64,000 bases of DNA, taken from positions 6,891 to 70,890 of the IMG/VR virus record IMGVR_UViG_3300044808_000010, one strand, 5' to 3'. A program made the position numbers and the translations under genes. Below, one piece after another: positions 3,261-62,006 of the stretch; the stretch's first letter is position 1, and each line of letters begins with the position of its first letter. The DNA is from a virus. A model generated the notes under the pieces. The model worked only from the letters and a program-made list of their open reading frames with translations, did no database searches and had not been told where the DNA came from.

Positions 3261-3866
3261 ATGCCGAGAGCAGAAGTTCAGATTTCACCCTTAGTCACCA
3301 TCGTTATCGACGCGCCGGAGGGCTCCAGCGGCGCTGAAACCCAGAAGACGCTTATCGAAGGAATTGCCTTCTGGCAAAGCCTTCCCACGGCCTGCCCAAT
3401 GCCCGGATGCGGCGCGCCGCTCCATTTCACCGCGCGCCATCCGCAGAACTTTCATTACTACGGTCTGCGCTGTGAAGGGCCAAAACCACACGAAGCAAAC
3501 TTAGGAGAGCGCAAAGACGGAACCAGCCTCTATGCCAAGGATGATGGCTGGAAAGACGCCTATGGCGGCGACCAGGAAGGCGGCGGTTCCGCGCCGGCGC
3601 AGGCTACGCAGTCCGCCCCCGCGCAAAATTCCCCCAGTGGGGGACAAGCGCCGCAAGGTGGCATCGCGCCGCCGACGATTGCGACCATCATGCGCACCGC
3701 CGCTGGCAAGACGCCGCCGATGTCCGATGCTAATGCAGTGCTGGCGTTTATCCGCGAGTGCGCCAAGCAGGATCCGGCACTGTCCGGCGCAGCGAACGTG
3801 CAGGAGATTAAACAACTGACCGAGGCGCAGGGCCAGGCGGTCATTACGAACCTGAGCTATTTGTAA
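3261..3866 (+). CDS. hypothetical protein with Cys/His motif and low-complexity linker
   Basis: CPMPGC...YYGLRC..H; RBS AAAGGT. Confidence 0.65.
   Translation: MPRAEVQISPLVTIVIDAPEGSSGAETQKTLIEGIAFWQSLPTACPMPGCGAPLHFTARHPQNFHYYGLRCEGPKPHEANLGERKDGTSLYAKDDGWKDAYGGDQEGGGSAPAQATQSAPAQNSPSGGQAPQGGIAPPTIATIMRTAAGKTPPMSDANAVLAFIRECAKQDPALSGAANVQEIKQLTEAQGQAVITNLSYL
3630..3644. repeat. dispersed palindrome copy 1 TCCCCCAGTGGGGGA
   Basis: In CDS, encodes SPSGG. Confidence 0.95.
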
Positions 3867-3872
3867 GCCTTG

Positions 3873-3940
3873 TGGCCGTGGCGCGAAAGCGCGTGAGGGA
3901 GCCAGATTCTTTCTCCCTCGCTACCGAAAGGACGCGGCCA
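3873..3940 (+). ncRNA. compact four-way-junction RNA candidate with two GAAA tetraloops
   Basis: TGGCCGTG/CGCGGCCA closing stem; GCGC-GAAA-GCGC; GTGAGGGAG/CTCCCTCGC; CC-GAAA-GG. Confidence 0.45.
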
Positions 3941-3967
3941 TCAATTTCTCATTTTGGAGGTTCACTC

Positions 3968-4246
3968 ATGGCTCGAAACTTTAGAGATGTAATCGCACAA
4001 ATCTTACCGCTTATTCCGGTCGATACGTCGGATGAAAACGACGACTTCACCGAACTCCGCAACGATTTAATACGGATAACAAGCGACTGGTACAAAGGTG
4101 CAGAGATAGACGGCGCACCGCTCTGGATGGGCGCAGCGTCAATCCTCGAACAGTGGCTTGAAGACCCGCAGCCGGACTGGCAAGAATGGAAGTGGCAGGT
4201 GCTTTCTATCTTCACGGGCGTTCCGTTTACAGCGGGAGGCGAGTGA
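3968..4246 (+). CDS. hypothetical protein
   Basis: RBS GGAGG then ATG 3968. Confidence 0.6.
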   Translation: MARNFRDVIAQILPLIPVDTSDENDDFTELRNDLIRITSDWYKGAEIDGAPLWMGAASILEQWLEDPQPDWQEWKWQVLSIFTGVPFTAGGE

Positions 4247-4566
4247 TGCCCGACCGTCTGCCCTGTCCGCCGCAGTCGAAGTCAATCAGCCAGCGCAGGG
4301 CTGCGCAACGGCGCGAGAAAGCGCCAGAGCCGTTTCTGTTCCCGGAACGCATTCTCGCCTCGCCTGAACTGTTGGAATTTGCGGCGCGCCACGGCTACGA
4401 AGGGGAAGAGTTGAAGCATTCGATTGAGTCCATGCGTATCAAGCGCCTCAGAGACAACAAGCAATACCGGGACGAGCGAGAGTTAGCGCTGGACATCCAG
4501 TACTGGATTATGAACTGCGCGTCGAATCGAGATAAGCATGCAAATGCGAATGGAGGACAATGGTGA
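4246..4566 (+). CDS. hypothetical protein (possibly replication-associated)
   Basis: TGATG overlap; near dnaB. Confidence 0.5.
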   Translation: MPDRLPCPPQSKSISQRRAAQRREKAPEPFLFPERILASPELLEFAARHGYEGEELKHSIESMRIKRLRDNKQYRDERELALDIQYWIMNCASNRDKHANANGGQW

Positions 4567-5060
4567 GATACGCAGCCGATACATCGGTCAGCAGTGAGCG
4601 GAGTCAGGCAGAGATTAAATCTACCCTGCAACGCTACGGTGCCAGCAAGTACGCCTTCTTCGAAGAGGATTCACGGTCGGCGATTATGTTCGAACTTGAA
4701 GATCGGCGGCTGCGCTTCGACTTGCCGCTTCCGAGTCGGACGGAGGACGAGTTCATTTTTCGCTACCGCATGGGCGAGAAGACCAGCAACGTCTTTCCGA
4801 TTGACCAGCAGCACAAGAAGTGGGAGCAAGCCTGTCGCCAGCGTTGGCGCGCGCTCGCTTTGGCGATCAAGGCCAAACTTGAAGCCGTGGAAAGCGGGAT
4901 CACCACCTTCGAAGATGAGTTTCTGGCGCACATTGTCATGCCGAACGGGATGACCATCGGCCAGCACATCACGCCGCAAATTCCAGACCTTTGCGCGACC
5001 GGGCGATTGCCGCAGTTAATGCCGGGGAAGCACGTTAAGCAAAAACAACTAACGAGTTGA
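4560..5060 (+). CDS. conserved hypothetical phage protein
   Basis: YAADTSVSSERSQAEI...RQRWRALALAIKAKLEAVESGITTFEDEFLAH, a recurring phage family. Confidence 0.75.
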   Translation: MVRYAADTSVSSERSQAEIKSTLQRYGASKYAFFEEDSRSAIMFELEDRRLRFDLPLPSRTEDEFIFRYRMGEKTSNVFPIDQQHKKWEQACRQRWRALALAIKAKLEAVESGITTFEDEFLAHIVMPNGMTIGQHITPQIPDLCATGRLPQLMPGKHVKQKQLTS

Positions 5061-5095
5061 TTGTTGAGAGGCCGCTATGTTAGAAACGCGCCCCC

Positions 5096-6502: not shown

Positions 6503-7392
6503 GTTTACCAAAAGTAGAAGATGCGTTTGAAGTGTGGGTTTCACGGGAAGAAGCGCGGTTCGGTCGCGTTGCGATAAAGCCAATGTGGGATTGGTTAAGC
6601 AAAGCCTTTCTTGCTGGCGCAGAGTACGGCGCAGCGGCGGGCGAGCAGATGCTTTGCGATAGACCCTACGGCCACGAAGGGGAATGCGCCTCAGATCGTC
6701 CGGGGGAATCTGCAAAGGGGGGCAGAGCAGATTCTCCCGTGGAGTGCGGCCAGCGCTGGAATTTCTCTGGTATCGGGTGCCGTTTTGAGGCGGGACATAA
6801 AGGCGGGCATTCGTGGGAGCCGCCGGAGTGCGGCATTCGAGGTTGCGTGTTCGCCTTCGGGCATCGGGGCGAATGCTCGCCCGATCTCCAGCCCCCAACC
6901 TCCCCCGTGGGGGACAGATCGCCCGTCTGCGCAGTCATCTCGGTTCCCGGCGGGCTTCCCTGTACGTTTGCACGGCATCACGCCAGCGCGCATTCGTGGG
7001 CGATGAGCCGCGACTACAAAGTGTCGGCGACAGGCGCAAAGAGTATTCCATCACTTGAGGCGGGAACTTGGGACAATACGCGCTCAAATCCCGACATGGC
7101 GCATTCGGCAGAAGGCTTCGCGCCGCCTTGCGTCACGTCTGACACCGTAGTTCTAACCGACAAAGGCTGGAGTGCCGTCAAAAACATTTGCAAACCGCCG
7201 CTCGGCGTCGTTCCGCAACACATCTGGCGCGAAGCGCGCGCGCGCGACCTCGCCAGAGCGATCCACGAGTATTGCGAGAGCGGAGCAAGGATTCAGCGCC
7301 CGTCGGTGCCACCTGCCACGGCATCACCGAGCAATGTTTACCCGGTTGGCGACTGGATTCGCGAGTTAGGAGAACTATGGGAGACGCTGTGA
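6499..7392 (+). CDS. protein with four Cys/His zinc-knuckle-like repeats and an intein block-A-like segment
   Basis: CDRPYGHEGEC, CRFEAGHKGGH, CVFAFGHRGEC, CTFARHHASAH; CVTSDTVVLTDKGW. Confidence 0.65.
   Translation: MSLPKVEDAFEVWVSREEARFGRVAIKPMWDWLSKAFLAGAEYGAAAGEQMLCDRPYGHEGECASDRPGESAKGGRADSPVECGQRWNFSGIGCRFEAGHKGGHSWEPPECGIRGCVFAFGHRGECSPDLQPPTSPVGDRSPVCAVISVPGGLPCTFARHHASAHSWAMSRDYKVSATGAKSIPSLEAGTWDNTRSNPDMAHSAEGFAPPCVTSDTVVLTDKGWSAVKNICKPPLGVVPQHIWREARARDLARAIHEYCESGARIQRPSVPPATASPSNVYPVGDWIRELGELWETL
6901..6914. repeat. dispersed palindrome copy 2 TCCCCCGTGGGGGA
   Basis: In CDS, SPVGD. Confidence 0.95.
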
Positions 7393-7847
7393 AACCATCG
7401 CCGGGGACAGAAATGGATGATACTGCCGCTGCGCCACACTTGAGGCAGGCTGAGCGAGACGACCCCCAGCAAGGGCATGGGAACACCCCCGCCTCTAGCG
7501 GCGCGTCTCAGGGCGATTTTAGCCCAAACTCAGATTCCGCCAGTTCGCATCTCGCCACAGAAGGCGATCTCGACGCCCTCGCGCCCGAAAATTCCCCCAT
7601 GGGGGACTCCGATGGCATGTCGTGCGACAAGTGTAGCAACCCGGCTGAATTATTGCTCTTGCTCGACGACCTGCCGCCTCGCTGCTTCAACTGCTGCCTA
7701 ATCGCCGCGATGAAGCGTCCCTGCTCGATCTGCGGCCAGCACATCACCGAGGCGATAACCCGCGCCTTGGACCAACAAGGTAAACCCAATACCATAGGCG
7801 TCTGCGCACAGTGCTTTATGAAAGCTGTGGCGGCGCAGAGGAATTGA
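7389..7847 (+). CDS. hypothetical Cys-rich protein
   Basis: Four CxxC pairs in the C-terminal half; GTGA overlap start (start uncertain). Confidence 0.55.
   Translation: MKPSPGTEMDDTAAAPHLRQAERDDPQQGHGNTPASSGASQGDFSPNSDSASSHLATEGDLDALAPENSPMGDSDGMSCDKCSNPAELLLLLDDLPPRCFNCCLIAAMKRPCSICGQHITEAITRALDQQGKPNTIGVCAQCFMKAVAAQRN
7593..7606. repeat. dispersed palindrome copy 3 TCCCCCATGGGGGA
   Basis: In CDS, SPMGD. Confidence 0.95.
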
Positions 7848-7848
7848 A

Positions 7849-9013: not shown

Positions 9014-9390
9014 TGGGTATCATGCCTGACGACGCGTATCTGCGAGACTTGCGCGATCCGTTTCATCCGCTACACCTGAAACGTAACGGCAGTGGGAGTT
9101 GCACAACGCGATATGACTGCTGCGAGCTTTTCGGTTGCGTCTTTGGTCACACGGAAGGCTGCTACGATCATCGCAACCAAGAAACCATGAACTATGGGGC
9201 TGCGATCTTTCGCTCCAAGCAAGGGCAACCGAACGCTCCAACAGTAATGAAACTCGAGTGCTTCAACAAAGAAGAGGCGGCCAAGGCGGAGGCGTACATG
9301 AAAAGAAAACATCCAGACGTGCCATTTTTTGCAACGTGGCTTACATGGCCGCATTTGTCCCCCATGGGGGAGAAAGGAGCGCCTGCATGA
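9013..9390 (+). CDS. hypothetical protein
   Basis: TAATG overlap; ends over palindrome copy 4. Confidence 0.55.
   Translation: MGIMPDDAYLRDLRDPFHPLHLKRNGSGSCTTRYDCCELFGCVFGHTEGCYDHRNQETMNYGAAIFRSKQGQPNAPTVMKLECFNKEEAAKAEAYMKRKHPDVPFFATWLTWPHLSPMGEKGAPA
9358..9371. repeat. dispersed palindrome copy 4 TCCCCCATGGGGGA
   Basis: SPMGE; abuts the RBS of the 9387 gene. Confidence 0.95.
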
Positions 9391-10361
9391 CGCCTGAAGC
9401 CTTAACTGATACCGCGCTCTCAATGGACGAACAAAGCGAACTCGCTGATTGTGAGGCTCGCGTTGAACGCGGGCTTGAAACGGCGCTAGACTGCGTTGAG
9501 GCACTTCGCACAATTCATAAGAAGCGCCTCTTCCGGCAAACTCACGCCACCTTTGAACTCTACTTCGAAGAACGCTGGGGACGAAAAAAGAGCCAGATGT
9601 ATCGCCTGCTCGCCGCCGCCGACGTGCGTGAGAACGTTCCTCAAATTGAAACTGAACGACAGGCGCGAGAGTTGGTTGGCCTCGCTCCGGAGATCCAGCA
9701 GGCCGCCTACACTATCGCGGAACTCGTGGCCCCAAAAGACGCCGAAGATAAGCCAATCATCACGGCATCGCTTTTGAAGAACTGCGTAGAAGGCGTGCAG
9801 GAAGAAGTGCGCGACGTGCTCCAGGGACACATGACGGACGAACACGGCGATCCCCGGCCTTTGTCTCAATTAACACCGCTGATGCAATCCAATGTAGTCG
9901 AGCGCCTGCGAGAGAAAACGCTGCGCCAGGCTGAGAAAATCCGCACCAGCATGGATCAAAGAGCCGCCCGGGCGCACGCCGCCGGCCAGCAAAAGGATGT
10001 CCCCGCCCAGCCCGCGTCAATCTTCTTGATGTACCTGATCCGCGAACTGACGCGCGCGATCGAGTACGTCAAAGAAGAAAAGGGGAGTCTGCATCCGCGC
10101 TACTTCGCGCCCTACCATCTGGCAAAGAGCGCAATTGGTGAAGCGCTGGAAGGTAGCGAGGTGTCGTTACTGCCGGACAAGGTAAGCATTGAAGGGGAAT
10201 GCGAAAGGTGCGGCCACGGCGAGACGGTGCGCGATACCGTGCTGACCGCGCAGCATGAGGGCCACGTCAAGAGTTTACGGATTAAGCTCTGCGACTTCTG
10301 CGTTTCGATCTACGAAAAAGTAATAGACCTTACGCCGAATGGAGAGGTGGTGGCGCGGTGA
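9387..10361 (+). CDS. putative DNA-binding protein (ELADCEARVERGL...RLFRQTHATFELYFEERWG family)
   Basis: RBS AAAGGAG; HTH-like TFELYFEERWGRKKSQMYRLLAAA; C-terminal CxxC pairs. Confidence 0.7.
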   Translation: MTPEALTDTALSMDEQSELADCEARVERGLETALDCVEALRTIHKKRLFRQTHATFELYFEERWGRKKSQMYRLLAAADVRENVPQIETERQARELVGLAPEIQQAAYTIAELVAPKDAEDKPIITASLLKNCVEGVQEEVRDVLQGHMTDEHGDPRPLSQLTPLMQSNVVERLREKTLRQAEKIRTSMDQRAARAHAAGQQKDVPAQPASIFLMYLIRELTRAIEYVKEEKGSLHPRYFAPYHLAKSAIGEALEGSEVSLLPDKVSIEGECERCGHGETVRDTVLTAQHEGHVKSLRIKLCDFCVSIYEKVIDLTPNGEVVAR

Positions 10362-10605: not shown

Positions 10606-10956
10606 ATGCAAAACGAACAAGCAACCACTGAAAACTTTGCGCTCACGCCCAGACAGCGACCGCTACCGAGCCGCTGGTTTCGCCGCGCTCTCTATTGGCT
10701 GTTTCCGCCGAACTATGATAAGTGGCCCGATACAATGGAAGGACGTCACGTTGTCTCGATAACTACTGACATCTTTCTTGGGTGGCGGGATCGCCTGCGA
10801 ATTCTATGCGGCGGAGTGCTGCGCCTTGATACGATCACACGCTCCACAGGCGAGTCAACGGAAGCCCAACCTTACGGCCCGATGGACAGCACGTCGGCAA
10901 TAGAAATCCGACCGCCGTTCATTACTAAACGTCCCCCAGTGGGGGAGGTGCGATGA
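10606..10956 (+). CDS. hypothetical protein
   Basis: Operon context. Confidence 0.6.
   Translation: MQNEQATTENFALTPRQRPLPSRWFRRALYWLFPPNYDKWPDTMEGRHVVSITTDIFLGWRDRLRILCGGVLRLDTITRSTGESTEAQPYGPMDSTSAIEIRPPFITKRPPVGEVR
10932..10946. repeat. dispersed palindrome copy 5 TCCCCCAGTGGGGGA
   Basis: PPVGE at gene end. Confidence 0.95.
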
Positions 10957-12742: not shown

Positions 12743-12756
12743 TCCCCCATGGGGGA
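12743..12756. repeat. dispersed palindrome copy 6 TCCCCCATGGGGGA
   Basis: Intergenic. Confidence 0.95.
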
Positions 12757-25666: not shown

Positions 25667-26083
25667 TTAGTCCTCTTCTCGGCGCGCCGTGATCGGGCTC
25701 CACGTACCTTCAATTGCTCCGATGTTCAAGTCGAAGTTCGTGCGGTTGCGCGCCAATAGACCGACAAAGGTTTCATCCTTCGCCATCCCGTCGCCAACTA
25801 CCTGAACGTCGCTCTGGAGTTCCAGAAAGCGATTGGAGCCCGCCAACTGAACCAGCGTGCCCTTCACGAGTCTGCGGCCGGCCGGGACAGATGCCAGTTC
25901 AGCGTCAGACATTGGCGCTTCCGTCTCCGTGGTTTGTACGCCTGCGTCGCCAACAGGGAGCGTGCCCGTCTCATCCCCATTCACAACGCTTTTGTCCCCC
26001 ATGGGGGAACTTTTCGGTGCCGCCTTTTTCGCGGTTTTCTTGGCGGCCTTTTTCGGCGCGGCCTTCTTTGCTGATTTCTTCAT
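25667..26083 (-). CDS. protein with Lys/Ala-rich histone-H1-like N-terminus
   Basis: MKKSAKKAAPKKAAKKTAKKAAPK; RBS GGAGG. Confidence 0.65.
   Translation of the reverse strand: MKKSAKKAAPKKAAKKTAKKAAPKSSPMGDKSVVNGDETGTLPVGDAGVQTTETEAPMSDAELASVPAGRRLVKGTLVQLAGSNRFLELQSDVQVVGDGMAKDETFVGLLARNRTNFDLNIGAIEGTWSPITARREED
25995..26008. repeat. dispersed palindrome copy 7 TCCCCCATGGGGGA
   Basis: SPMGD. Confidence 0.95.
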
Positions 26084-40071: not shown

Positions 40072-43000
40072 TATTCGATGATCTTGTCGATGCGCTCTTT
40101 CAGGGCATCGCGCTTCTCTGCGGGGAGTTTCTTCAATCCGCGGCGCACCTTCTTCTTCAGCATCGGAATCAGTTCCTCTTTCTGCTCTGGCTTCGCCTGT
40201 TCGACCGCTTCAACCGCCGTCTCCAAGGGCAGGGGAATGAACGACGATTGCAGGGCGCTGAACTTACCCTTTTTGTGCAGTTCTTTCAAGTCGTCTTTCG
40301 CCAGTTTACCTTCTTCAATAAGACGCTCAATCTCGTCATCCTGGTCGTCTCCGGCGCGCTGGCGCTTAACGATTTCTTTCTTTAATTGCTGGCGCTCAGG
40401 ATCAGCGGCTTTGGGAAACCCATTCGGGAACTTTTCATTGTAGTAATCGCGGATGACCTCTTCGGTTGCCGTATGATATTTACCTTCCTGAAGCCCCATC
40501 GAATTCACGAAAGACTCCCACCATGCATCGTCTGTATGGCCTTTCAGGCTAATCGGCATCGGCGACTTGACGAAGCTTTTGATTTGCTCGGCGGCATCAA
40601 CCTTCTGGCCGCGATCATCGCGTCCGGTCAGCGCTGTAATGCCGGCCACAGAGACAGGCGAGAGACGGTGATAACTAAACCCGCGCGGGTCCGAAATCAA
40701 ATGCACAATATCGGCCGGGACGGTACGCACGCCGAACCAGCGCTTTTTATACATGATTCGAAACATGTTCTCCGGTTCCCAGTGATAGTCATCGTCCAGA
40801 AGTTTATTCAGGATGCGCGCTGACGTGTACTGGGTTATCGCCAAAAGCCCGAGCGCGGCCAATTGTTCGCGACCGTGATACTTCACCTGCTTGCCTTCCG
40901 GCGTTGCCAGTATCTCCGGCTTGATCGCCTGGGCGACAAATCTCGCGCGCGCCTCCAAAAAATCCGGTGCCAGCAGGAACACTCGTAGCGCGTCCTGATA
41001 CGACGGATTGCGACCCATGTACTTATAGTTCAACTCGCCAAAGGCCGCGTTGGATTGCTCGGCCGTCATCTCCGCAATCTGGTCGGGGTTCAGGGTCTTG
41101 CCGTAACGCTTCGTATTTCGTTCGTAAGCGTGCAGCGCCATCGTCATCTTCAATTCGGGAATGAAGTCCCGGAAAAGGTAATCCTGATAAGGCTGGAAAA
41201 TTCGACTGCCAAGAATGGGTATCTTGTTCGTCAGGTTTCCGCCCGTCAGCCCTTCGCTGAACTCTTCCATTCCGTCAAAGGTCGCTACTTGAAGGCCGCG
41301 CTTAATCAGCAGACTTTGCGTCGGATCGTCGAAATTCAACTTAATTCGATTCAACGGATTGACCTTGTGTCCGAGCGCGTGAATTCCTTCTTGAACCTGG
41401 TGGAATCCCGAGAGCGAAAACATAGTGCCCTTAATGGTCGTTTGGGCGGTTTTGACGCCGCGCGCAATTGTCGGCAGCGTATCCTTCCCCGAAAACCATG
41501 AGCGCCCCAACACGTTCTTCAAATGTCCATACGCTTCCGGGTGAACCAGCATGTCGCCCTTCATAAAAATAGGCGTCTTGTTCTCTCCCTTCGTGTTCAT
41601 CAACCACTTCCAGCCGCGCAAGGCAGGGTGATCGACAACGCGGTAGTCAGAAAGGTCAAGCGGTTCTTCCTGCATCGCCTTTCGGGCGACCGCCGTAGGC
41701 ATGCTGGGCTGCTTCGTATGAGGGCGAATCACATACTGTTCGGGCGGTTCTTCGCCTTCGGGCACAGCCGCGCCACTTCCGGAGATTTCTACTAATGGTC
41801 GTCCGTCGCTGGCCTTAGAACCATGCAAACTCAGAATGAATTGCCGCGAGAAGATCGCCCGGTCGAGGCTCTGATTGTAAATGGAAAGCAGCGTCCCAAT
41901 GTCCTTCGATAGCGGTTTGCGGCCTATCTGCTCGCCTTCGAAGAAACTGTCAAAGATGCGCTGCTTGGCAAACCGAAAGTTGGGCTCCAACAATCCTCTT
42001 TGTACATCTGCCATCAGATTCTTTGTAACTTCGTTCGAGCGCGACCATGCCTGGTTGACGTAGTTCTCAACGACGCCATTCAGAATCCCGGCCGCGTGCG
42101 CTTCCTGCCAGCGCGACTCGTAATACGACGAGATATTATTCGCCACCGTCTTCTCTTCGTCGGTCAATCTCTGCGCCTCTTCATATCCCATGCGAAGCCG
42201 GAGTTTTGACGCTGCCGCCCGTTGCGCTAAGACAGTGAGGTCGCCGCCAGCCTGAATGTAGTTTGTGATGGCCTCGCGCCGGAGTTTGCTCGGAATCTGC
42301 TTCTTAATCTGCTTCGCGAACTGGCGCGTTTCGTGATCGCTCCGTTGCGCCGCGTACAGGAAGTCGCCAAGGTCTTTCTTGTACTCCGTCACCTCGGGGC
42401 GGGTCAGCACGGCCTCGCCAATGGCTTTCATGCGCGCCAGACTGTTTACTACCCAGTCCTTGCCTTGTGAGGCTTTGTCGGCGGCGTCCAGCGCAGAGGC
42501 GGTCAGGTTGCGCATGCCTTTGCCCTTCGGGAGTTTTGCGATGGCCTCGGACAATTGCTCTATCGTGCTCGCAGCCGGAACGTCGCCTTTGGCCGCAGCG
42601 CCGGGACCAAAACTGAGTCTCTCCCCCATGGGGGAATTTTCGGCATTGCCCTTAAACTTGGCCTGAGCCTCGTTGGCTGTGCCTTCCTCAATGGTGTAAC
42701 CCTGCTTCTCTAATACCTGTTTGTAGCGCTCAAAAGCATGTAGTGGCACCCCGGCCATCGCCTCGCCGTGACGCTGAGTTTTGGTTATCTCTAGCAATTT
42801 AGCGGCGACCACGGCATCATCACCGAAAAACTCCATGAAGTCCCCGAGACGATAGCCTTTGATTGTTTTCTTGGCGACAGCAGCGGGAGCCTCTTCTACC
42901 GCCGGAGTTGCTGTGGCTCCCGTTTTCGCTTTTGCAGCGAAGCGAGGAATGCGTATACCGCGCTCGGTTTGCTCTGCGGCGTCAAAGTCAAATCGTTTAT

Positions 43001-47867: not shown

Positions 47868-49352
47868 TTACTTCTTGCGGCGCTTCACGGCGGCCTCGAC
47901 TTCGGCTTGGGTTGGATGCGAACCGTCAGCATTCACGGAATTGGCGTAATACGCACGAAACTCGGCGTCGGTCATCGCGCGGAGACTTCCTGCGGTGATG
48001 CCTGACTTGGCTGTCTTCCCTGTTGGCGGGGTCGGCACGCCTACATTCACGCCGCCTTGCGGCGCTTTATCGACTTCCGCGAAGAGCGCGGTGGCAGCGG
48101 ATCGCTTCTCGCGCGCTTCCTTCCTAAGTTTTTCAATATCAGCCGGATCAAGTCGCGCGCTAAATGGCTTTCCCTCTTCGGCTTTAATTGAACCTTCAAT
48201 GCCGTCAGCGACACTTTGCAACGCGTAAGCCTCCGCGCGCTTACCCTCAATCCCGGCATCATACTTCGATTTTCCAAGATTCAAGGACGCCTGCTCAACC
48301 TGTAATCGTGCGGCGTTTATCTGAGCGTTGAAAGTCTGAATCTGTTTCGAGAAGTCGAATTTCTCGCGACTGAATTCGTAATTCCGTTTGCTGCTCAGAG
48401 TTTCCCCTGTGTCCAAGTCACGCTTCTCGCCAACGCCTGTAACAGCCTTCTCGCCTTCCGGCGTTTCCACGTAAGCCCAGTTACCCTTCGGATCACGTTG
48501 CAACGTGTATTTCAAATGCCCGTCAGGGTCTTCGATTTCGACGCGAGGCTGCCCCTTACCGCGTGCGGCGTTGTAGGCGGTCGGATCAATATTCAGTCCT
48601 GCTTCCTTGGCCTGGTTCAGCAATCGAGCATGCGTGGCGTCCCCTGGATCGATGTAGCCCAGCCGATCCAACTGCGCCAGCAAAATGCGCTGTGTGCTCG
48701 TCAGCGATTTCGTCTTCGCCGCGGTCTGGCGCTCTGTCAGATTCTTATAACCAAGATCGGTCAGATTTGACCGCCGCGTGATATTCGAGGCGGTGTTCGC
48801 GTACTTTTCCGCCCGAACAACATCTTCTTCCCGCTGCTGCACGTCATACATCTTCTTGATTGCGCCGGGGAGTTTAGGGCGAATCGCGCCGGAGACGGCG
48901 CCGCCGCCAAATGCTCCAAGTTGGCGCGCGACATCTGCCCACGTGCCCCCTGCCGGAGCCTGCCCCATAGCGTAAGCGCCCATCTTGAGCGCGGCTTTGA
49001 AGCGGTTCTCCTTTTCTACGGGCGCATCCCGGGTCGCCTTCAATTGATTCAGAGCGCGGGAAAGTTCGGCTAATGCTGGATCGTCATAACCGGCTGGCTG
49101 CGGCGCTGGCGCGGAAGATCCGGCGGGCGCGACAGGCGTGTCCCCCATGGGGGAAGAAATCGGCGGACGTGGAAAGGCGCGAGGGTTTGGGGAAGCATCG
49201 CCGCCAACTGGCATGACTGCATAAGTATTACCCACAGGCACGACCGCCGTGGCCGCCACGGGCTCTTTCGGGGAAGGTAAACTCATCGCCACGTCTTGCT
49301 GACGCCGCTTTGGATCGTCTTCCCGCCTGCGTTGGACTGCGTAAACGCTCAT
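47868..49352 (-). CDS. putative DNA-ejection protein
   Basis: Pro-rich N-terminus, Gly-rich amphipathic segment, coiled coils; start uncertain (49286, 49352 or 49424). Confidence 0.6.
   Translation of the reverse strand: MSVYAVQRRREDDPKRRQQDVAMSLPSPKEPVAATAVVPVGNTYAVMPVGGDASPNPRAFPRPPISSPMGDTPVAPAGSSAPAPQPAGYDDPALAELSRALNQLKATRDAPVEKENRFKAALKMGAYAMGQAPAGGTWADVARQLGAFGGGAVSGAIRPKLPGAIKKMYDVQQREEDVVRAEKYANTASNITRRSNLTDLGYKNLTERQTAAKTKSLTSTQRILLAQLDRLGYIDPGDATHARLLNQAKEAGLNIDPTAYNAARGKGQPRVEIEDPDGHLKYTLQRDPKGNWAYVETPEGEKAVTGVGEKRDLDTGETLSSKRNYEFSREKFDFSKQIQTFNAQINAARLQVEQASLNLGKSKYDAGIEGKRAEAYALQSVADGIEGSIKAEEGKPFSARLDPADIEKLRKEAREKRSAATALFAEVDKAPQGGVNVGVPTPPTGKTAKSGITAGSLRAMTDAEFRAYYANSVNADGSHPTQAEVEAAVKRRKK
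49141..49154. repeat. dispersed palindrome copy 13 TCCCCCATGGGGGA
   Basis: SPMGD. Confidence 0.95.
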
Positions 49353-54124: not shown

Positions 54125-54573
54125 AACCCCTCCAAATCTGGCTCCTGCGGTTTCCCGTCCTTGCTCCAAACCAGATTCATTTCCCCTGGCTTGAACTCCG
54201 GGCACGTATCCGCGTGCATTACACAGTGCTCGATCGCGGCGTCGTTCGACTTGTAAACCTTCCCGCCCAACGCTCGAATCTTTTTCACGATGTCGATGAT
54301 CTCAAATCGCATCCGAAACTGCTGCGGACGTTTCGCCGGGCCTTTTACGCGCCCTTTCCTGATTTTTGGGTCCTTGCGCCGCGCCAGAAGTTGATCAATT
54401 TGCGTCTGGCTGACCCGGCCTCTGCTGGGCTGCCGGGCAATCAACCCTTTTTTCATCAGTTGGTAAAACGTGATGTCGGTGTACTTCGTGATTTCCGACA
54501 TCTCGTCCAGCGAGTACGTTTTTTCTGGCTCACTTTCCCCCATGGGGGACTTTTCGGGTTTCGGTTGCGTCAT
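54121..54573 (-). CDS. MerR/excisionase-like HTH DNA-binding protein
   Basis: TYSLDEMSEITKYTDITFYQLMKKGLI; first gene of the late leftward block. Confidence 0.6.
   Translation of the reverse strand: MTQPKPEKSPMGESEPEKTYSLDEMSEITKYTDITFYQLMKKGLIARQPSRGRVSQTQIDQLLARRKDPKIRKGRVKGPAKRPQQFRMRFEIIDIVKKIRALGGKVYKSNDAAIEHCVMHADTCPEFKPGEMNLVWSKDGKPQEPDLEGL
54536..54549. repeat. dispersed palindrome copy 14 TCCCCCATGGGGGA
   Basis: SPMGE near the start of the HTH gene. Confidence 0.95.
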
Positions 54574-55306: not shown

Positions 55307-56822
55307 CGAATGGCTTGGCTGCTACAAAGGCGGCTGGAAGGGTTTGATCTGCGACGAAGCGTTCGCGCACCCTGCCAAATACTCACGTAAACTCATTGAA
55401 CACATCTATGAGCACGTCATCGCGGAAGGGTGGGCGCGCCCCGGCGATTCGGTCGTGGACCCGTTCGGCGGAGTTGCTTTGGGCGGGTTCGATGCCATGC
55501 GCCACGGTCTGAATTGGACAGGCTGCGAGTTGGAGGCAAAATTCGTCGGGCTCGGCAACCAAAACATAGATTTCTGGAATGAGCGATTTTCACGTCTCCC
55601 CCAGTGGGGGACTGCGCGGTTGCTTCAGGGCGATTCGCGGAATCTGGCGAGCGTGATTCGTGAGGCGCAATGCTGCGTTTCGAGTCCGCCTTACATCGAA
55701 AGCCTCAAGCCTGAAACCGAAGAACAGACCGCGGCAAAGCAGCGCCGCATTGCTGAATCGAAGTCGCGTTACGACGGGCGAAAGTTAGAGCAGCCTTCGC
55801 CAGGCAAAGCGGGATTAGGCGGCGGCTACGGAATCACTGAGGGCAATTTGGGCGCGATGCCGCCGGGCGATCTATGCGTCACCTCGCCGCCTTACGTTGG
55901 TTCACTTGCTAACGCCAAAAACTACGCGGATCCGGAGAAGGCGCAGGCCGACAGCGAGCGTGAGTTCATGCAGCATCGAAGCTCAACCTACGCCGATCTT
56001 CGCTACGGGGAAACCGAAGGAAATTTAGGCGCAATGCCTGAAGGTCAACTTGCAATCACGTCGCCGCCTTACGCCGCGATTTCACCCGAAAAATCCAGCA
56101 AGAGCGTTGACTACGAAAAGCAATACGCAACCTATCGCTCGCAAGGCGGCGGCGCATCCTTCGAGAAATTCGTCGCAACGCAGAAATTGCACTCAGGCGG
56201 CTATGGCAATAGTGAGGGGCAGCTATCGGCAATGGAAGCGGCAGGATTCGCGGCGGCGGTGAGTAGCCCGCCGTGGGAGTCTGTCGAAGGCGCGAATGCA
56301 GGAAAAAAACATAAAGACCCTGCAGCAGTAGCAAAAAAGCGGTCAGCCGAGTATGCCAGCGGAAAACTTAAAGGCCACCAAGCGAGCGAGGCCGCTATCC
56401 TGGCGCAGTTCGAACGCGAAAACGAATACAACTACGGGAATTCAGAAGGCCAACTTGGAGTTGAGCGCGGCGAAACCTTTTGGTCAGCGTCCCGCACGAT
56501 TCTCGAACAACTCTACGAAGTGCTCGCGCCCGGCTCGCACGCGGTCTTCGTCGTTAAGGCATTCGTCAGGAATAAACAAATCGTGGACTTCCCCGGACAG
56601 TGGGCGCAACTCTGTGAGGCGGTAGGATTCAAACTTCTGCACGATCATCACGCGCTTCTAACAGAGGAATACGGCGAACAGCATCGACTCGACGGCGGCT
56701 CCGACATCACCACAGTCGCTCGGAAATCTTTCTTTCGCCGCCTCGCTGAATCAAAAGGCTCTCCAAGGATCGACTTCGAAAACGTGCTCTGCTTCGAACG
56801 TCCCTTCACACCTGAAACCTAA
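55293..56822 (+). CDS. amino (N4-C/N6-A) DNA methyltransferase with four tandem SPP(Y/W) modules
   Basis: HPAK, VVDPFGG, GCELE, GDSR; SPPY x3 and SPPW. Confidence 0.85.
   Translation: MAQIDEWLGCYKGGWKGLICDEAFAHPAKYSRKLIEHIYEHVIAEGWARPGDSVVDPFGGVALGGFDAMRHGLNWTGCELEAKFVGLGNQNIDFWNERFSRLPQWGTARLLQGDSRNLASVIREAQCCVSSPPYIESLKPETEEQTAAKQRRIAESKSRYDGRKLEQPSPGKAGLGGGYGITEGNLGAMPPGDLCVTSPPYVGSLANAKNYADPEKAQADSEREFMQHRSSTYADLRYGETEGNLGAMPEGQLAITSPPYAAISPEKSSKSVDYEKQYATYRSQGGGASFEKFVATQKLHSGGYGNSEGQLSAMEAAGFAAAVSSPPWESVEGANAGKKHKDPAAVAKKRSAEYASGKLKGHQASEAAILAQFERENEYNYGNSEGQLGVERGETFWSASRTILEQLYEVLAPGSHAVFVVKAFVRNKQIVDFPGQWAQLCEAVGFKLLHDHHALLTEEYGEQHRLDGGSDITTVARKSFFRRLAESKGSPRIDFENVLCFERPFTPET
55597..55611. 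repeat. dispersed palindrome copy 15 TCCCCCAGTGGGGGA
   Basis: In methyltransferase, LPQWG. Confidence 0.95.
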
Positions 56823-57978: not shown

Positions 57979-58929
57979 TTAGCGCAGCGGACGGTCGGGC
58001 TTGGTCGCCGCCAGGACCTTCCTCACGCCATCCCAGAAGTCGGTGATCTTATGGCTCGGCCAGGTCGCCATCTCGGCAACGCTGATTTGAACCTCAATGT
58101 TGAACCGCAGGAATCCGTCGATCGACACGATGCTCGCTCGCGGGATTTCCATTGGCGGCGTCGGTTTCTCCCCCACGGGGGACACCGAATCGGGTGCTGG
58201 AATAATATTCCGGGAATTATCCGTGGCTTCCTCCTTCTTGTAAAAACCGCATTGATAGTGATGCCCGATGGTCGGCGGATCACAATTTCGCATACAGAAG
58301 GCGTCGCGCTCAAATTCCGGCGCAATCTCCGCCATAACCGCGGCGTCGGCTTCCAGGATCGCTTCTTCTACCACTTCCGGCGCGGTGCCCAGCATCTCTT
58401 GGACTTTCGCAATGGTTTCGGCGGACGTGCGGGCGATTTTCTTTTCCCCGGGCTTGTTGTACGGTTCGCCAGCGTTCATCCGAACGTACCAGCACCGGCC
58501 GCCATGCCGCCGAGGGCGCCCACAGCCGCATACCTCCGAAGTAATAGCTTTTGAAGTATCAGGTTCCGCGGTAACAGTTTTTGAAGTATCTGAGTGCCCG
58601 TTCTGATCGGTCTTTCGTTTCAACTCAGCGCGCGCCTGATAGCAGGCTCGACAATACTGCGCTGAACCCGGAGAGCGCGGCTTGCCGCAATCCAGACACT
58701 TCGGCTGATAATCTTCGTCAATGTGCCCCAATTTCTCACCTGCTCTCACGGAAAACCGGTCAAACCCATCTGCCGTTTCCCGCTTGTCGATCTCTAGCCA
58801 CTCGAACTGCAGCCGATGCAAAACTATGTCTAGGCGCCCGTAATCCAACCCCGTCTCACGGTGAAGCCCCGGCCGCGAGTCTACCCCGCGCCGAATCGCT
58901 GATAACACAATGTCCGTTTCTTCCTGCAC
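57979..58929 (-). CDS. winged-helix plus Cys/His-motif protein
   Basis: N-terminal wHTH-like; CLDCG..CRAC, CGCGRP..HGGRC. Confidence 0.6.
   Translation of the reverse strand: MQEETDIVLSAIRRGVDSRPGLHRETGLDYGRLDIVLHRLQFEWLEIDKRETADGFDRFSVRAGEKLGHIDEDYQPKCLDCGKPRSPGSAQYCRACYQARAELKRKTDQNGHSDTSKTVTAEPDTSKAITSEVCGCGRPRRHGGRCWYVRMNAGEPYNKPGEKKIARTSAETIAKVQEMLGTAPEVVEEAILEADAAVMAEIAPEFERDAFCMRNCDPPTIGHHYQCGFYKKEEATDNSRNIIPAPDSVSPVGEKPTPPMEIPRASIVSIDGFLRFNIEVQISVAEMATWPSHKITDFWDGVRKVLAATKPDRPLR
58169..58182. repeat. dispersed palindrome copy 16 TCCCCCACGGGGGA
   Basis: SPVGE. Confidence 0.95.
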
Positions 58930-61299: not shown

Positions 61300-61302
61300 C
61301 GC

Positions 61303-61364
61303 CTGATAGCGATCCGGCAGCGCGTCCGTGTAATGCGTTGCCGCGTCCCTATTGGACGAGAAAG
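61303..61364 (+). repeat. early-region hairpin repeat B
   Basis: CTGA..ATCCGGCAG-CGCGT-loop-ATGCG-TTGCCGCGT..CGAGAAAG. Confidence 0.7.
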
Positions 61365-61377
61365 CGAGTTTTGATTT

Positions 61378-61656
61378 ATGGCTTATCAACCTAAGACCGG
61401 AGCGCCTTGCGGCTGCAAACGCGGTATTCAGCGCGATAACTGCCCGAACTGTGAGGGCACAGGCCAGGTAATAGACTTCGCGGCAATTCGCGCGCGCACC
61501 CAAGCAAGCCGCATCAAGGGCGACCTTATGCGGCAAGGCGTCAACGTTTCGACTGACTGCATCCTTACCGCGTTAAGGCGTGGCGATTCGGAAAGCGAGA
61601 TCAAGGCCAGCATGAGCGCAATATGGAGCGACATTCTCGAGCGTGAAAGCGCGTAA
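61378..61656 (+). CDS. small zinc-finger early protein
   Basis: CGC..G..RDNCPNCEGTG. Confidence 0.65.
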   Translation: MAYQPKTGAPCGCKRGIQRDNCPNCEGTGQVIDFAAIRARTQASRIKGDLMRQGVNVSTDCILTALRRGDSESEIKASMSAIWSDILERESA

Positions 61657-61662
61657 CGCCGC

Positions 61663-61721
61663 CTGACCGCATCCGGCAGTCTCGCTTGCGAGTTTGCCGC
61701 GTGTCGTTTGACGCGAGAAAG
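61663..61721 (+). repeat. early-region hairpin repeat C
   Basis: CTGA..ATCCGGCAG-TCTCG-CTTG-CGAGT-TTGCCGCGT..CGAGAAAG. Confidence 0.7.
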
Positions 61722-61733
61722 CAGAGGAACTTT

Positions 61734-62006
61734 ATGAGCGGACAGAAACAGGACAACATACTGGTATCCCGAAGTTGGGTTGAGCAAGCGCAGGTAAGGG
61801 TTAATGCCCATGATGCACTTGTCCGAGCGTTGCGTCAGTTGAACCATATGGGCGGTGATGATCGGGGCGGCTACTGCATTTGTCCGCGTCAGGATGGTAG
61901 CGCGGCTGACGATCAGCACTCTTCGGGATGCGCTGACGCCCGCGCCGCGCTCAACCTCGCAGAAGGCGAAAAGTCCCCCACTGGGGGAGAAAGTCGGTCA
62001 AAATGA
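61734..62006 (+). CDS. hypothetical early protein
   Basis: RBS GAGGA; VNAHDALVRAL...ARAAL..AEG phage motif. Confidence 0.6.
   Translation: MSGQKQDNILVSRSWVEQAQVRVNAHDALVRALRQLNHMGGDDRGGYCICPRQDGSAADDQHSSGCADARAALNLAEGEKSPTGGESRSK
61974..61988. repeat. dispersed palindrome copy 17 TCCCCCACTGGGGGA
   Basis: SPTGG at gene end. Confidence 0.95.

What the first reader, a model, noticed from the sequence alone, without database searches (positions are those of the whole stretch)
3630..61988. Genome-wide palindrome TCCCCC-N2/3-GGGGGA, 17 copies, mostly written into protein-coding genes
Seen: copies start at 3630, 6901, 7593, 9358, 10932, 12743, 25995, 34009, 36146, 39602, 42622, 47392, 49141, 54536, 55597, 58169 and 61974. 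The spacer is AT (10 copies), GT/AC (2) or AGT/ACT (5), and many copies have an A/T tract on one flank. Fifteen lie in unrelated genes on both strands (portal, TerS, ejection proteins, methyltransferase, early genes), usually in linkers or near gene ends, and two are intergenic. They are read in all three codon phases (SPMG/SPSGG, PPVGE/PPLGD, LPQWG), so the constraint is on DNA, not protein. A rough estimate for 12 fixed bases at an eyeballed GC of about 57% gives well under 0.1 expected copies. Inference: these are binding sites for a phage-encoded dimeric protein that coats the genome. Possible roles are parS-like positioning or condensation, roadblock repression like mycobacteriophage stoperators (which, unlike these, are asymmetric), or tight hairpins used in packaging or ejection.
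Basis: partly seen in the sequence, partly recalled or inferred. Interest (0 to 1): 0.92.

Follow-up and report, generated by a model that had tools for sequence, protein, structure and literature searches.

The report
Phage-wide palindromic protein docking sites
An uncultured phage carries about twenty perfect copies of one short DNA palindrome, written even into its genes, and they are most likely docking sites for one of the phage's own DNA-binding proteins, whose job is still unknown.

Summary
All 17 copies are at the stated coordinates (0.01 expected), and the whole 70.9-kb phage record has 20. Shuffling synonymous codons leaves 0.16 copies inside ORFs against 18 observed, so the constraint is on DNA.

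A syntenic relative, G1 (TerL 68% identical), has none of these copies. It has 23-24 copies of a shifted word, TC(T/G)CCC-N2/3-GGG(A/C)GA. At least 8 of them sit at orthologous positions, down to the same codons and once in a different reading phase. The two arms of most G1 copies are not complementary, which argues against a hairpin.

The best candidate reader is the 324-aa protein at 9387-10361:
- A copy sits on the gene's leader in both phages.
- Its N-terminal domain looks like the ParB/Noc DNA-binding domain and belongs to a very large family with no Pfam match.
- In 56 of 74 relatives, the loop after the reading helix is encoded by a perfect palindrome of the same design.
- The half-site co-varies with that helix (partial r 0.44; 0 of 2000 permutations).

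Binding and function are untested. This scan has noted similar arrays on other phage DNA. The closest cases in print are the Cluster O mycobacteriophage repeats and KorB-OB.

The parts
3630..3644 (.). motif copy, spacer AGT. Inside ORF 3261-3866(+), phase 0, peptide SPSGG in a P/Q/G-rich linker
6901..6914 (.). motif copy, spacer GT. Inside ORF 6499-7392(+), phase 0, SPVGD. Not at the aligned position in G1
7593..7606 (.). motif copy, spacer AT. Overlapping ORFs 7508-8188(-) and 7188-7847(+), so the gene assignment is uncertain
9358..9371 (.). motif copy, spacer AT, 15 nt upstream of ATG 9387 of the candidate reader gene and abutting its AAGGAG. Also in the last codons of ORF 9013-9390. An orthologous copy lies 8 nt upstream of the G1 orthologue's ATG
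9387..10361 (+). candidate reader P0016 (324 aa). N-terminal ParB/Noc-DBD-like helix-turn-helix domain (aa ~10-115; reading helix KKSQMYRL), then long helices, then a C-terminal beta domain with CxxC...CxxC
10932..10946 (.). motif copy, spacer AGT. In the last 8 codons of ORF 10606-10956(+), phase 2, and 6 nt before ATG 10953. Its G-rich arm forms GGAGG
12743..12756 (.). motif copy, spacer AT. Intergenic between minus-strand genes (stop at 12762; next ATG at 12724). Orthologous copy in G1 at 24998
25995..26008 (.). motif copy, spacer AT. Inside ORF 25667-26104(-), phase 0, SPMGD. No G1 copy nearby
34009..34022 (.). motif copy, spacer AT. In the small ORF 33955-34227(-), phase 1, between the 457-aa and 845-aa genes. 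Orthologous copy in G1 at 4467
36146..36159 (.). motif copy, spacer AT. Codons 213-217 (SPMGD) of the 845-aa protein between TerL and the major head protein (called portal from position only). Same codons in G1 (SPTGD). SPxGD is kept in homologues of at least 57% identity and replaced at equal length (for example EQDGE) in more distant ones
39602..39616 (.). motif copy, spacer AGT. In the TerS-like 170-aa ORF 39559-40071(-), phase 2 (SPPLGD), 24 nt upstream of the TerL start. Orthologous copy in G1 (SLPLGD): there the changed motif base changes Pro to Leu
42622..42635 (.). motif copy, spacer AT. At aa 1742 of the 2595-aa protein, phase 0, SPMGE. Absent at the aligned G1 position
47392..47405 (.). 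motif copy, spacer AT. At aa 152 of the 2595-aa protein, SPMGE. Same codons in G1 (SPTGE)
49141..49154 (.). motif copy, spacer AT. At aa 91 of the 518-aa ORF 47868-49424(-), SPMGD, in a P-rich segment that is a gap in G1
54536..54549 (.). motif copy, spacer AT. In ORF 54121-54891(-), phase 0, SPMGE in a K/E/P linker. It lies near the 5' end if the gene starts at 54573. Weak PHROG hit to 'excisionase and transcriptional regulator'
55597..55611 (.). motif copy, spacer AGT. At aa 102 of the DNA methyltransferase ORF 55293-56822(+), phase 1, LPQWG. This gene has no G1 orthologue
58169..58182 (.). motif copy, spacer AC. In ORF 57979-58929(-), phase 0, SPVGE in a P-rich linker
61974..61988 (.). motif copy, spacer ACT. 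Intergenic, 14 nt upstream of ATG 62003

Best explanation
The palindrome is the double-stranded-DNA docking site of the phage's own 324-aa helix-turn-helix protein, P0016 (window 9387-10361). Two copies of its ParB/Noc-like DNA-binding domain would each read one TCCCCC arm.

Shown:
- The word is held by selection at the DNA level.
- It sits where it costs the proteins least: disordered linkers, gene ends and short intergenic gaps.
- Sites are kept at the same places in a diverged relative, while the spelling of all of them has changed together.
- Sites are also gained and lost by point substitutions.
- P0016's gene carries a copy on its leader in both phages.
- P0016 belongs to a very large family with no Pfam match, in which most members carry a perfect palindrome of this design inside their own gene, and the half-site changes with the reading helix.

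Inferred:
- P0016 binds the sites as a dimer.
- The copy on its leader gives negative autoregulation.
- The array of ~20 over-dispersed sites marks and organises the phage chromosome. I think the long helical and zinc-ribbon-like C-terminal part may bridge or anchor sites, and bound protein may act as local roadblocks. I do not think the sites act as promoters, terminators or a partition centromere.

Rough odds within this reading: chromosome organisation or anchoring 0.35; transcription or replication roadblock or regulator 0.25; something else 0.4.
For: Non-randomness and DNA-level constraint:
- 17 copies against 0.01 expected.
- 18 in-ORF copies against 0.16 after a synonymous-codon shuffle.
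- All three phases are used, plus intergenic copies.

A lineage-specific reader:
- The exact 14-mer occurs in only 59 stretches of IMG/VR, one copy per stretch.
- G1 (syntenic, 40-79% amino-acid identity) has 0 exact copies but 23-24 copies of TC(T/G)CCC-N2/3-GGG(A/C)GA. After the synonymous shuffle ~1 G1 copy is expected inside ORFs, against 19 observed.
- 8 of the 20 G0 sites have a G1 site at the orthologous place: 7 within 50 nt by interpolation and 1 by alignment.
- 5 were checked at codon level. One pair is read in different phases (FPHGGQ against SPTGRH). In another, the motif change forces Pro to Leu.

Against a nucleic-acid structure:
- 21 of 24 G1 sites have non-complementary arms at arm position 3.
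- Of four G1 sites folded, the two heterotypic ones give -3.8 and -5.9 kcal/mol; four G0 sites give -7.9 to -10.5.

- A site lies 15 nt (G0) and 8 nt (G1) upstream of its ATG.
- There is a single family member per genome.
- The N-terminal domain model has pLDDT 93. Its best Foldseek rows are Spo0J-parS (prob 0.95), Noc-NBS (prob 0.97, TM 0.55/0.62), Spo0J, Noc, ParB and KorB. VIA gives Spo0J Z 7.2, rmsd 3.0, 105 residues aligned.
- The family has 6602 representatives at E<=0.001.
- In 56 of 74 non-identical IMG/VR loci, the loop after the reading helix is encoded by a perfect palindrome with arms of at least 7 bp, against 2 and 0 of 74 in control windows 110 nt away. Some are near-identical to the G0 and G1 words, for example L092 and L103.
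- Half-site distance correlates with reading-helix distance given the rest of the domain: partial r 0.44, 0 of 2000 permutations. The correlation with the rest of the domain given the helix is -0.02 (n = 40 members with spacer 0 and arms >=7).
- 4 of the 59 IMG/VR occurrences of the exact 14-mer lie in this loop of family genes.
- The members most like P0016 in the helix (L092 QKSHSYRL, L059 EKSHVYRL) carry TCCCCC half-sites, yet rank 59th and 52nd of 78 by identity over the rest of the domain.
- The G1 orthologue's helix differs (GASHAYRL), in step with the changed arm.
Against: - There is no binding datum for any member of this family.
- No fold match reaches E<=0.001, and a VIA Z of 7.2 is in the range this tool calls middling for helical domains.
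- Pfam HTH_ParB and DUF3102 each hit only 1 of 60 members, weakly.
- P0016 and its G1 orthologue lack the in-gene loop palindrome that marks the family. The link therefore rests on the leader copy and the helix-to-site correlation.
- Within one genome the spacer is 2 nt at 14 sites and 3 nt at 6. That moves the half-sites by one base pair, which is awkward for a rigid dimer.
- G1 sites prefer one T arm and one G arm (18 of 24). A simple homodimer model does not predict this.
- In G0, 11 of 20 sites have a T-run after the motif on the antisense strand, against a 17% background. This hints at a directional component I cannot explain.
- None of the 56 relatives with a strong in-gene palindrome shows extra copies within +-10 kb. 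The family does not usually use arrays.
- DNA was available for only two genomes of this lineage.
- The covariation test controls for relatedness only through the rest of the domain.
Confidence: 0.58

Rival explanations
1. The sites are docking sites on duplex DNA, but for a different phage or host protein. Candidates are the 150-aa Xis/MerR-like product of 54121-54573, the TerS-like 170-aa protein, or an unrecognised factor. P0016 would then be only one of the genes that happens to have a copy nearby.
For: - The concerted change of spelling between G0 and G1 demands a co-evolving reader but does not name it.
- The 54121-54891 ORF has a weak PHROG hit to 'excisionase and transcriptional regulator' (E 2.4e-4) and a copy near its 5' end.
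- The TerS-like ORF holds a conserved copy.
- Most proteins of this phage have no family hit, so a reader could be hidden among them.
Against: - The copy in the Xis-like gene is not at the orthologous place in G1; the nearest G1 sites are 449 nt away or more.
- The TerS-like ORF matches no family.
- Neither candidate has a family-wide link to palindromes of this design. The P0016 family does, and the link is tied specifically to its reading helix.
Confidence: 0.2
2. The element works as a nucleic-acid structure: a hairpin in RNA or single-stranded DNA, or a cruciform. In G0 it could be a one-way intrinsic terminator that stops antisense transcription, or an mRNA stabiliser or processing site next to ribosome-binding sites.
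For: - G0 copies fold as 5-6-bp G:C stems of -7.9 to -10.5 kcal/mol (4 folded).
- 11 of 20 G0 sites have at least 4 T in the 9 nt after the stem on the antisense strand (background 17%), and only 1 of 20 on the sense strand.
- About 6 G0 copies lie within 25 nt upstream of a start codon.
- Family in-gene palindromes are perfect over 7-13 bp, longer than a dimer needs.
Against: - In G1, 21 of 24 sites have non-complementary arms, with no compensatory changes.
- The two heterotypic G1 sites folded give only -3.8 and -5.9 kcal/mol, and one of them adopts a different fold.
- T-runs are absent in G1: 2 of 24 sites on either strand.
- For 3 of the 4 G0 hairpins folded, 28-71 of 200 shuffles of the same 26 nt fold at least as well.
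- The window has no Rfam family match.
- Many copies lie deep inside long genes, where a sense-strand structure has no obvious role.
- The A-rich sense flanks can come from Lys/Glu/Asn-rich linkers and the purine-rich stretches ahead of start codons.
Confidence: 0.1
3. The sites are promoters, or promoter-proximal elements, for a phage-specific transcription machinery. The model would be the ~17 co-evolving promoters of T7-like phages or the hairpin promoters of N4.
For: - The copy number (~20), the positional conservation and the concerted change of spelling between relatives resemble T7/T3 promoter sets (recalled knowledge).
- Several copies lie just upstream of genes.
Against: - The core is symmetric in G0.
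- In G1, where the arms differ, orientation relative to the gene strand is 13 to 8.
- Many copies lie in the middle of long genes.
- The single-subunit RNA polymerase family PF00940 found nothing in G0 or G1, but its control genomes did not ring either, so that result is inconclusive.
- The 2595-aa protein matches only MutS domain I.
Confidence: 0.04
4. The repeated unit is really a peptide motif (S-P-x-G-D/E), or the target of the phage's DNA methyltransferase or a restriction system.
For: - 11 of 18 in-ORF copies are read in phase 0 as S-P-x-G-D/E/G.
- AT-spacer copies contain CCATGG.
- The phage encodes an N6/N4 methyltransferase.
Against: - A synonymous shuffle that keeps every peptide regenerates 0.16 in-ORF copies, against 18 observed.
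- Seven in-ORF copies use other phases, and some copies are intergenic.
- One orthologous pair is read in different phases.
- The methyltransferase gene has no orthologue in G1, which still has an array.
- Restriction targets are normally avoided in phage genomes, not enriched (established knowledge).
Confidence: 0.03

Closest known systems
17-bp dyad repeats of Cluster O mycobacteriophages (Corndog TGTTCGG-NNN-CCGAACA, 34 copies; PMC4351075, sections 8 and 13 and found passages read)
   Same: - An invariant inverted repeat with a short variable spacer.
- Tens of copies spread over a ~70-kb phage genome.
- Copies are intergenic, at gene ends and inside genes.
- Copies are mostly at the same places in relatives, and are lost by single base changes.
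- No integrase or parAB.
- The authors predict dimeric DNA-binding proteins, think promoter regulation unlikely, and list a ParB-like domain protein among the candidates.
   Different: - The phage, the host group and the word are unrelated.
- The Cluster O paper names no reader and reports no change of spelling between relatives.
- Here a relative shows a concerted change of spelling at orthologous codons, and a specific candidate reader is supported by family-wide covariation.
- There are fewer copies here (20 against 34).
KorB and its OB operators on IncP plasmid RK2; more broadly ParB-parS and Noc-NBS (PMC11790492: abstract and the 'Main' section read; Noc and parS details recalled)
   Same: - A ParB-family-type helix-turn-helix domain reading a ~16-bp palindrome.
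- Sites are dispersed over a replicon, some next to promoters and some far from them.
- The best structural look-alikes of P0016's N-terminal domain are Spo0J-parS, Noc-NBS, ParB and KorB.
   Different: - KorB, ParB and Noc are CTP-dependent clamps with an N-terminal CTPase domain, and KorB works with KorA.
- P0016 has only ~50 residues before the HTH and no Pfam ParB family hit.
- No ParA-type gene was found.
- The fold matches are weak (E>0.1).
- Membership of the ParB family is therefore not established.
Stoperators of Cluster A mycobacteriophages (as described in PMC4351075 section 13; otherwise recalled)
   Same: Many copies of one short word across the genome, including inside genes, bound by one phage protein.
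   Different: - Stoperators are asymmetric and oriented with transcription, and serve a lysogenic repressor.
- Here the core is symmetric and orientation is not kept (13 to 8 in G1).
- No integrase was found.
Initiator or organiser proteins whose binding site lies inside their own gene (lambda O with ori-lambda, SPP1 G38P with oriL, the parS site inside B. subtilis spo0J).
   Same: - In 56 of 74 relatives of P0016 the palindrome lies inside the protein's own gene, just after the DNA-binding domain.
- The gene sits in replication and recombination modules.
   Different: - In G0 and G1 the site is on the leader, not in the gene, and there are ~20 more copies.
- No A/T-rich unwinding element or iteron array was seen.
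- I saw no sequence similarity to those proteins: Pfam gave no hit.

Membership tests
ParB/KorB/Noc family (CTP-dependent clamps with palindromic sites) | ParB-type helix-turn-helix DNA-binding domain fold | tested here: inconclusive
   The domain model has pLDDT 93. Top Foldseek rows are Spo0J-parS, Noc-NBS, Spo0J, Noc, ParB and KorB, with prob up to 0.97 and TM 0.45-0.62, but every E-value is >=0.26. VIA gives Spo0J Z 7.2, rmsd 3.0, 105 aligned. Pfam HTH_ParB hits 1 of 60 family members at E 0.0025.
ParB/KorB/Noc family (CTP-dependent clamps with palindromic sites) | N-terminal ParB/Srx-like CTPase domain | tested here: not met
   Only ~50 residues (two helices) precede the HTH. P0016 matches no Pfam family at E<=0.01.
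ParB/KorB/Noc family (CTP-dependent clamps with palindromic sites) | A ParA-type partner (for partition systems) | tested here: not met
   PF13614 (AAA_31) found nothing in G0 or G1, while all 14 control genomes rang. Other ParA-type families were not searched.
ParB/KorB/Noc family (CTP-dependent clamps with palindromic sites) | The protein binds the palindrome | not testable with these tools
   Only indirect evidence is available: the leader copy in both phages and the helix-to-half-site covariation.
Genome-wide dyad repeats of the Cluster O mycobacteriophage type | Tens of invariant inverted repeats with a short variable spacer, both between and inside genes | tested here: met
   20 perfect copies and no one-mismatch copies. 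Positions are described.
Genome-wide dyad repeats of the Cluster O mycobacteriophage type | Sites at the same places in related phages, with occasional gain or loss by point changes | tested here: met
   8 of 20 sites are orthologous with G1. Lineage-specific sites arise by substitutions at equal length.
Genome-wide dyad repeats of the Cluster O mycobacteriophage type | The word is absent from the host genome | not testable with these tools
   The host is unknown.
Stoperators (Cluster A mycobacteriophages) | An asymmetric site oriented with transcription | tested here: not met
   The G0 core is symmetric. Arm orientation in G1 relative to gene strand is 13 to 8.
Intrinsic terminator or structured RNA element | Stem kept by compensatory changes, followed by a U-tract | tested here: not met
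   21 of 24 G1 sites have non-complementary arms. A T-run follows 11 of 20 G0 sites (antisense strand only) but only 2 of 24 G1 sites. No Rfam family match.
Promoter set of a phage-encoded single-subunit RNA polymerase | An RNA polymerase gene in the genome | tested here: inconclusive
   PF00940 found nothing in G0 or G1, but nothing rang in the control genomes either.
P0016-type HTH family with no Pfam match (a palindrome in its own gene) | N-terminal domain homologous to the family | tested here: met
   phmmer finds 6602 representatives at E<=0.001 and 663 at E<=1e-10, aligned over residues ~8-115.
P0016-type HTH family with no Pfam match (a palindrome in its own gene) | A perfect palindrome encoded in the loop just after the reading helix | tested here: not met
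   Present in 56 of 74 relatives. P0016 and its G1 orthologue have a short loop with no palindrome; their copy is on the leader instead.

The most novel reading that the evidence does not exclude
A very large phage HTH family with no Pfam match (thousands of representative sequences) is 'self-addressed'. Each member would carry its own binding palindrome inside its own coding sequence, read through a simple helix-to-half-site code. In the G0/G1 lineage the site has left the gene and colonised the whole chromosome as an over-dispersed array. The protein would use the array to organise or silence phage DNA without any ParB-type CTPase. If true, this gives predicted DNA targets for thousands of uncharacterised phage proteins and a new way for a lytic phage to mark its chromosome.
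Probability: 0.35. Interest if true: 0.8.

Novelty: new variant of a known kind. Interest (0 to 1): 0.6.

Why it matters
Genome-wide dyad repeats have been described in a few phages, but their reader and purpose are unexplained (Cluster O, PMC4351075).

This pair of phages is a natural experiment. The sites stay at the same places, even the same codons, while the spelling changes in all of them together with the reading helix of one candidate protein.

The family-level result, a palindrome in the protein's own gene that co-varies with the reading helix, would predict binding sites for a very large group of uncharacterised phage proteins. It also shows how strongly a DNA-level signal can dictate protein sequence: linker peptides such as SPMGD exist here because of the DNA word.

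My four literature searches found no description of this family or of its in-gene palindrome.

Tried and rejected
- Near-identity search of window 30000-50000 against 50,697 phage records: no match.
- Fetching DNA of further relatives failed. The portal-like protein alone in metagenome contigs found none. So the six closer homologues that keep SPxGD could be seen only as proteins.
- G2 (TerL 41% identical) shares only TerL and one other protein with G0 and has no copy of the motif, so it says little about this array.
- G003, the only IMG/VR contig with two exact copies, has them inside a longer duplicated sequence and is unrelated.
- Pfam and PHROGs gave nothing for most proteins. P0016 has no sequence hit in the PDB, and the profile A3 gave only chance-level rows.
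- The whole-protein Foldseek search was uninformative.
- Complex prediction on two copies of P0016 returned 'no answer': scores 0.22 and 0.26 against a mark of 0.42. This is not evidence either way.
- An integrase was sought and not found, and likewise a ParA-type ATPase. The search for T7-type RNA polymerase was inconclusive.
- The idea that the family generally comes with arrays is rejected. None of the 56 members with strong in-gene palindromes has a further copy outside the gene within +-10 kb.
- The idea that the copies were inserted as 15-nt units is rejected. Distant homologues of the portal-like protein have a different peptide of the same length, and lineage-specific sites align without gaps in 4 of 7 cases.
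- Even spacing is significant in G1 (CV 0.54; 0 of 5000 random sets as even) but not in G0 (CV 0.79; p 0.22).
- The host-repeat test is not decisive. The scan stopped at 120 stretches, each with one copy.
- No family member was found in G3, and only a distant DUF3102-like ORF in G2.

Full report
**Observation.** Dinucleotide-preserving shuffles give 0.01 on average and never more than one. These copies hold 17 of the 33 CCCCC runs and 17 of the 31 GGGGG runs in the window. The window is bases 6891-70890 of a 70,890-bp IMG/VR virus record rated 97% complete. The whole record has 20 copies. There are no one-mismatch copies; the rows listed are shifted readings of perfect copies.

**The genome.** It looks like a tailed-phage genome with few recognisable proteins:
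- large terminase (PHROG) and major head protein;
- DnaB-type helicase and an SNF2-type helicase;
- exonuclease-like and polymerase-exonuclease-like proteins;
- a DNA methyltransferase and a NinG-like protein;
- a 2595-aa protein whose only match is MutS domain I.

I found no tyrosine integrase and no ParA-type ATPase. I found no T7-type RNA polymerase either, but that search's controls did not ring.

**The constraint is on DNA.** On a crude map of longest ORFs, 18 of the 20 copies lie inside ORFs.
- Permuting codons within genes leaves 0.005 in-ORF copies. Permuting only synonymous codons, which keeps every protein and the codon usage, leaves 0.16 (200 shuffles each).
- Eleven of the 18 are read in phase 0 as S-P-x-G-D/E/G, five in phase 1 and two in phase 2.
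- The surrounding peptides are typically P/E/K/S-rich linkers or gene ends.
- About six copies lie within 25 nt upstream of a start codon.
- In the 845-aa protein between terminase and head protein (portal by position only), SPMGD sits in a loop. Homologues of at least 57% identity keep SPxGD there. More distant ones have an unrelated peptide of the same length. The word was therefore written in by substitution, not inserted.

**Relatives.**
- The exact 14-mer with the AT spacer occurs in only 59 stretches of IMG/VR, one copy each.
- A terminase search found G1, a complete 72.8-kb genome with terminal repeats and 68% TerL identity, and the much more distant G2.
- G1 is syntenic with G0 at 40-79% protein identity. 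It has no copy of the G0 word.
- Instead it has 23 copies (24 with one variant) of TC(T/G)CCC-N2/3-GGG(A/C)GA, usually flanked TG...CA. After the synonymous shuffle about 1 copy is expected inside ORFs, against 19 observed.
- Eight of the 20 G0 sites have a G1 site at the orthologous place.
- Codon-level alignments show the same five codons in the SNF2 helicase (SPMGE/SPSGG), the portal-like protein (SPMGD/SPTGD), the giant protein (SPMGE/SPTGE) and the TerS-like ORF (SPPLGD/SLPLGD). In the last, the changed motif base forces Pro to Leu.
- In the exonuclease-like gene the two phages read the site in different phases (FPHGGQ against SPTGRH).
- Other sites are private to one phage. They arise by substitutions in alignable sequence or lie in variable segments.
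- Many sites have thus been kept in place while their spelling changed together. That calls for a co-evolving trans-acting reader.

**Structure or protein?**
- In G1, 18 of 24 sites pair one T arm with one G arm, and 21 of 24 are non-complementary at that position. This is the opposite of compensatory change.
- The two heterotypic G1 sites I folded give -3.8 and -5.9 kcal/mol as RNA. Four G0 sites give -7.9 to -10.5. For three of those four, 28-71 of 200 shuffles of the same 26 nt fold at least as well.
- Arm orientation relative to gene strand in G1 is 13 to 8, so this is not a directional signal like a stoperator or a promoter.
- No Rfam family matches the window.
- One feature points the other way. 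In G0, 11 of 20 sites have at least 4 T in the 9 nt after the motif on the antisense strand (background 17%), often as TTTTCG. G1 lacks this (2 of 24). It may reflect Lys/Glu/Asn-rich linkers and purine-rich leaders. I leave it unexplained.

**The candidate reader.**
- A copy lies 15 nt before its ATG in G0 and 8 nt before the ATG of its G1 orthologue.
- The protein (P0016, 324 aa) has no Pfam or PHROG match.
- An exhaustive HMMER search found 6602 representative proteins at E<=0.001 that share its N-terminal ~110 residues.
- The domain model (pLDDT 93) resembles the DNA-binding domains of Spo0J, Noc, ParB and KorB more than anything else. The scores are weak: Foldseek prob up to 0.97 and TM 0.45-0.62, but E>=0.26. 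VIA gives Z 7.2 to Spo0J.
- Only ~50 residues precede the HTH, so there is no CTPase domain.
- The rest of the protein is long helices and a beta domain with two CxxC pairs.

**Family-wide test.** I fetched 80 IMG/VR loci that encode family members.
- In 56 of 74 non-identical loci, the loop right after the reading helix is encoded by a perfect palindrome with arms of 7-13 bp. Control windows 110 nt to either side give 2 and 0 of 74.
- The palindromes differ between members but share the design of the G0 and G1 words. Some are near-identical to them, for example L092 and L103.
- Among the 40 members with spacer 0 and arms >=7, half-site distance correlates with reading-helix distance after controlling for the rest of the domain: partial r 0.44, with 0 of 2000 permutations as high. 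The correlation with the rest of the domain given the helix is -0.02.
- Four of the 59 IMG/VR occurrences of the exact G0 14-mer lie in this loop of family genes.
- The members whose helix is most like P0016's KKSQMYRL (L092, L059) carry TCCCCC half-sites, yet rank 59th and 52nd of 78 by identity elsewhere in the domain.
- The G1 orthologue's helix is GASHAYRL, in step with its changed arm.
- None of the 56 members shows extra copies outside its gene within +-10 kb. The array is therefore an expansion particular to this lineage. P0016 itself has lost the in-gene copy.
- Family genes sit among replication and recombination genes: DnaD-like, AAA_24, DUF669, PAPS reductase and HNH. Six of 60 are fused to a Dam methyltransferase.

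**What the array does is not shown.**
- Sites avoid each other. The smallest gap is 692 bp in G0 (p 0.014) and 984 bp in G1, and G1 spacing is far more even than random (0 of 5000).
- With no CTPase domain, no ParA and no integrase, partition, sliding-clamp silencing and lysogenic repression are all unlikely.
- I commit to site-specific docking of P0016 dimers, negative autoregulation through the leader copy, and a chromosome-marking or organising role. Roadblock regulation is the main alternative within this reading.

**Comparison with what is known.**
- The Cluster O mycobacteriophages carry more than 30 copies of a 17-bp dyad repeat with the same distribution and the same open question (PMC4351075).
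- KorB-OB on RK2 is the best-understood case of a ParB-family protein using dispersed palindromes (PMC11790492: abstract and 'Main' section).
- This scan's earlier notes describe similar arrays and ParB-like readers on other phage DNA. Those notes are unchecked AI leads. Here I tested the family claim myself, with a relatedness-controlled test.
- Four literature searches found no description of the family or of its in-gene palindrome.

Noticed in passing
G2 = IMGVR record behind L066 (L076-L079), sites at 2070, 10258, 20335, 33344, 35612, 49457, 59224, 68047: This distant relative (TerL 41% identical, 61.7% GC) has 8 copies of an AT-rich near-palindrome, GCAAA(A/T)TTTGC, against 0.01 expected. 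It may be an unrelated array. Only a distant DUF3102-like ORF was found (63464-64423), with no copy inside it.
   Followed up: partly
window 40071-47858 (-): The 2595-aa protein upstream of the terminase genes carries a MutS mismatch-recognition domain I at aa 1663-1734 (Pfam E 1.8e-11; PDB MutS E 1e-6). Nothing else in it is recognisable. The G1 orthologue is 2374 aa.
   Followed up: partly
G1 (L073) sites at 28441 and 44346: In G1 the motif arm GGGAGA lies 8 nt before the ATG of two genes: the P0016 orthologue and the polymerase-exonuclease-like gene. It probably doubles as their Shine-Dalgarno sequence.
   Followed up: no
window sites 3630, 7593, 25995, 34009, 39602, 42622, 54536, 61974 and genome 1073, 5823: About half of the G0 copies are preceded on the sense strand by cgaaaa(t/g), which reads as TTTTCG after the motif on the antisense strand. 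This occurs in all phases and in intergenic copies. G1 lacks it.
   Followed up: partly
G1, all 24 sites: 18 of 24 sites combine one TCTCCC arm with one TCGCCC arm, and only 3 are perfect palindromes. The preference for mixed arms is unexplained.
   Followed up: partly
window 55293-56822 (+): The DNA methyltransferase gene, which itself holds a motif copy, has no orthologue in G1.
   Followed up: no
window 62660-64000 (+): An ORF runs off the end of the record (at least 446 aa) and carries DUF3560 (E 2.6e-34). The record may be cut inside this gene.
   Followed up: no
family members in alignment A3: 6 of 60 members of the P0016-type HTH family are fused to a Dam-type DNA adenine methyltransferase.
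   Followed up: no
L144 and L155 (IMG/VR loci): Two family genes carry two or three tandem copies of their palindrome inside an enlarged post-HTH loop.
   Followed up: no
genome 4917 (G0) against G1 41010, SNF2 helicase: At this orthologous site the spacer is 2 nt in G0 and 3 nt in G1. The reading frame is restored by one base fewer right after the motif (SPMGEE against SPSGGE), a compensated indel within about 10 nt.
   Followed up: no
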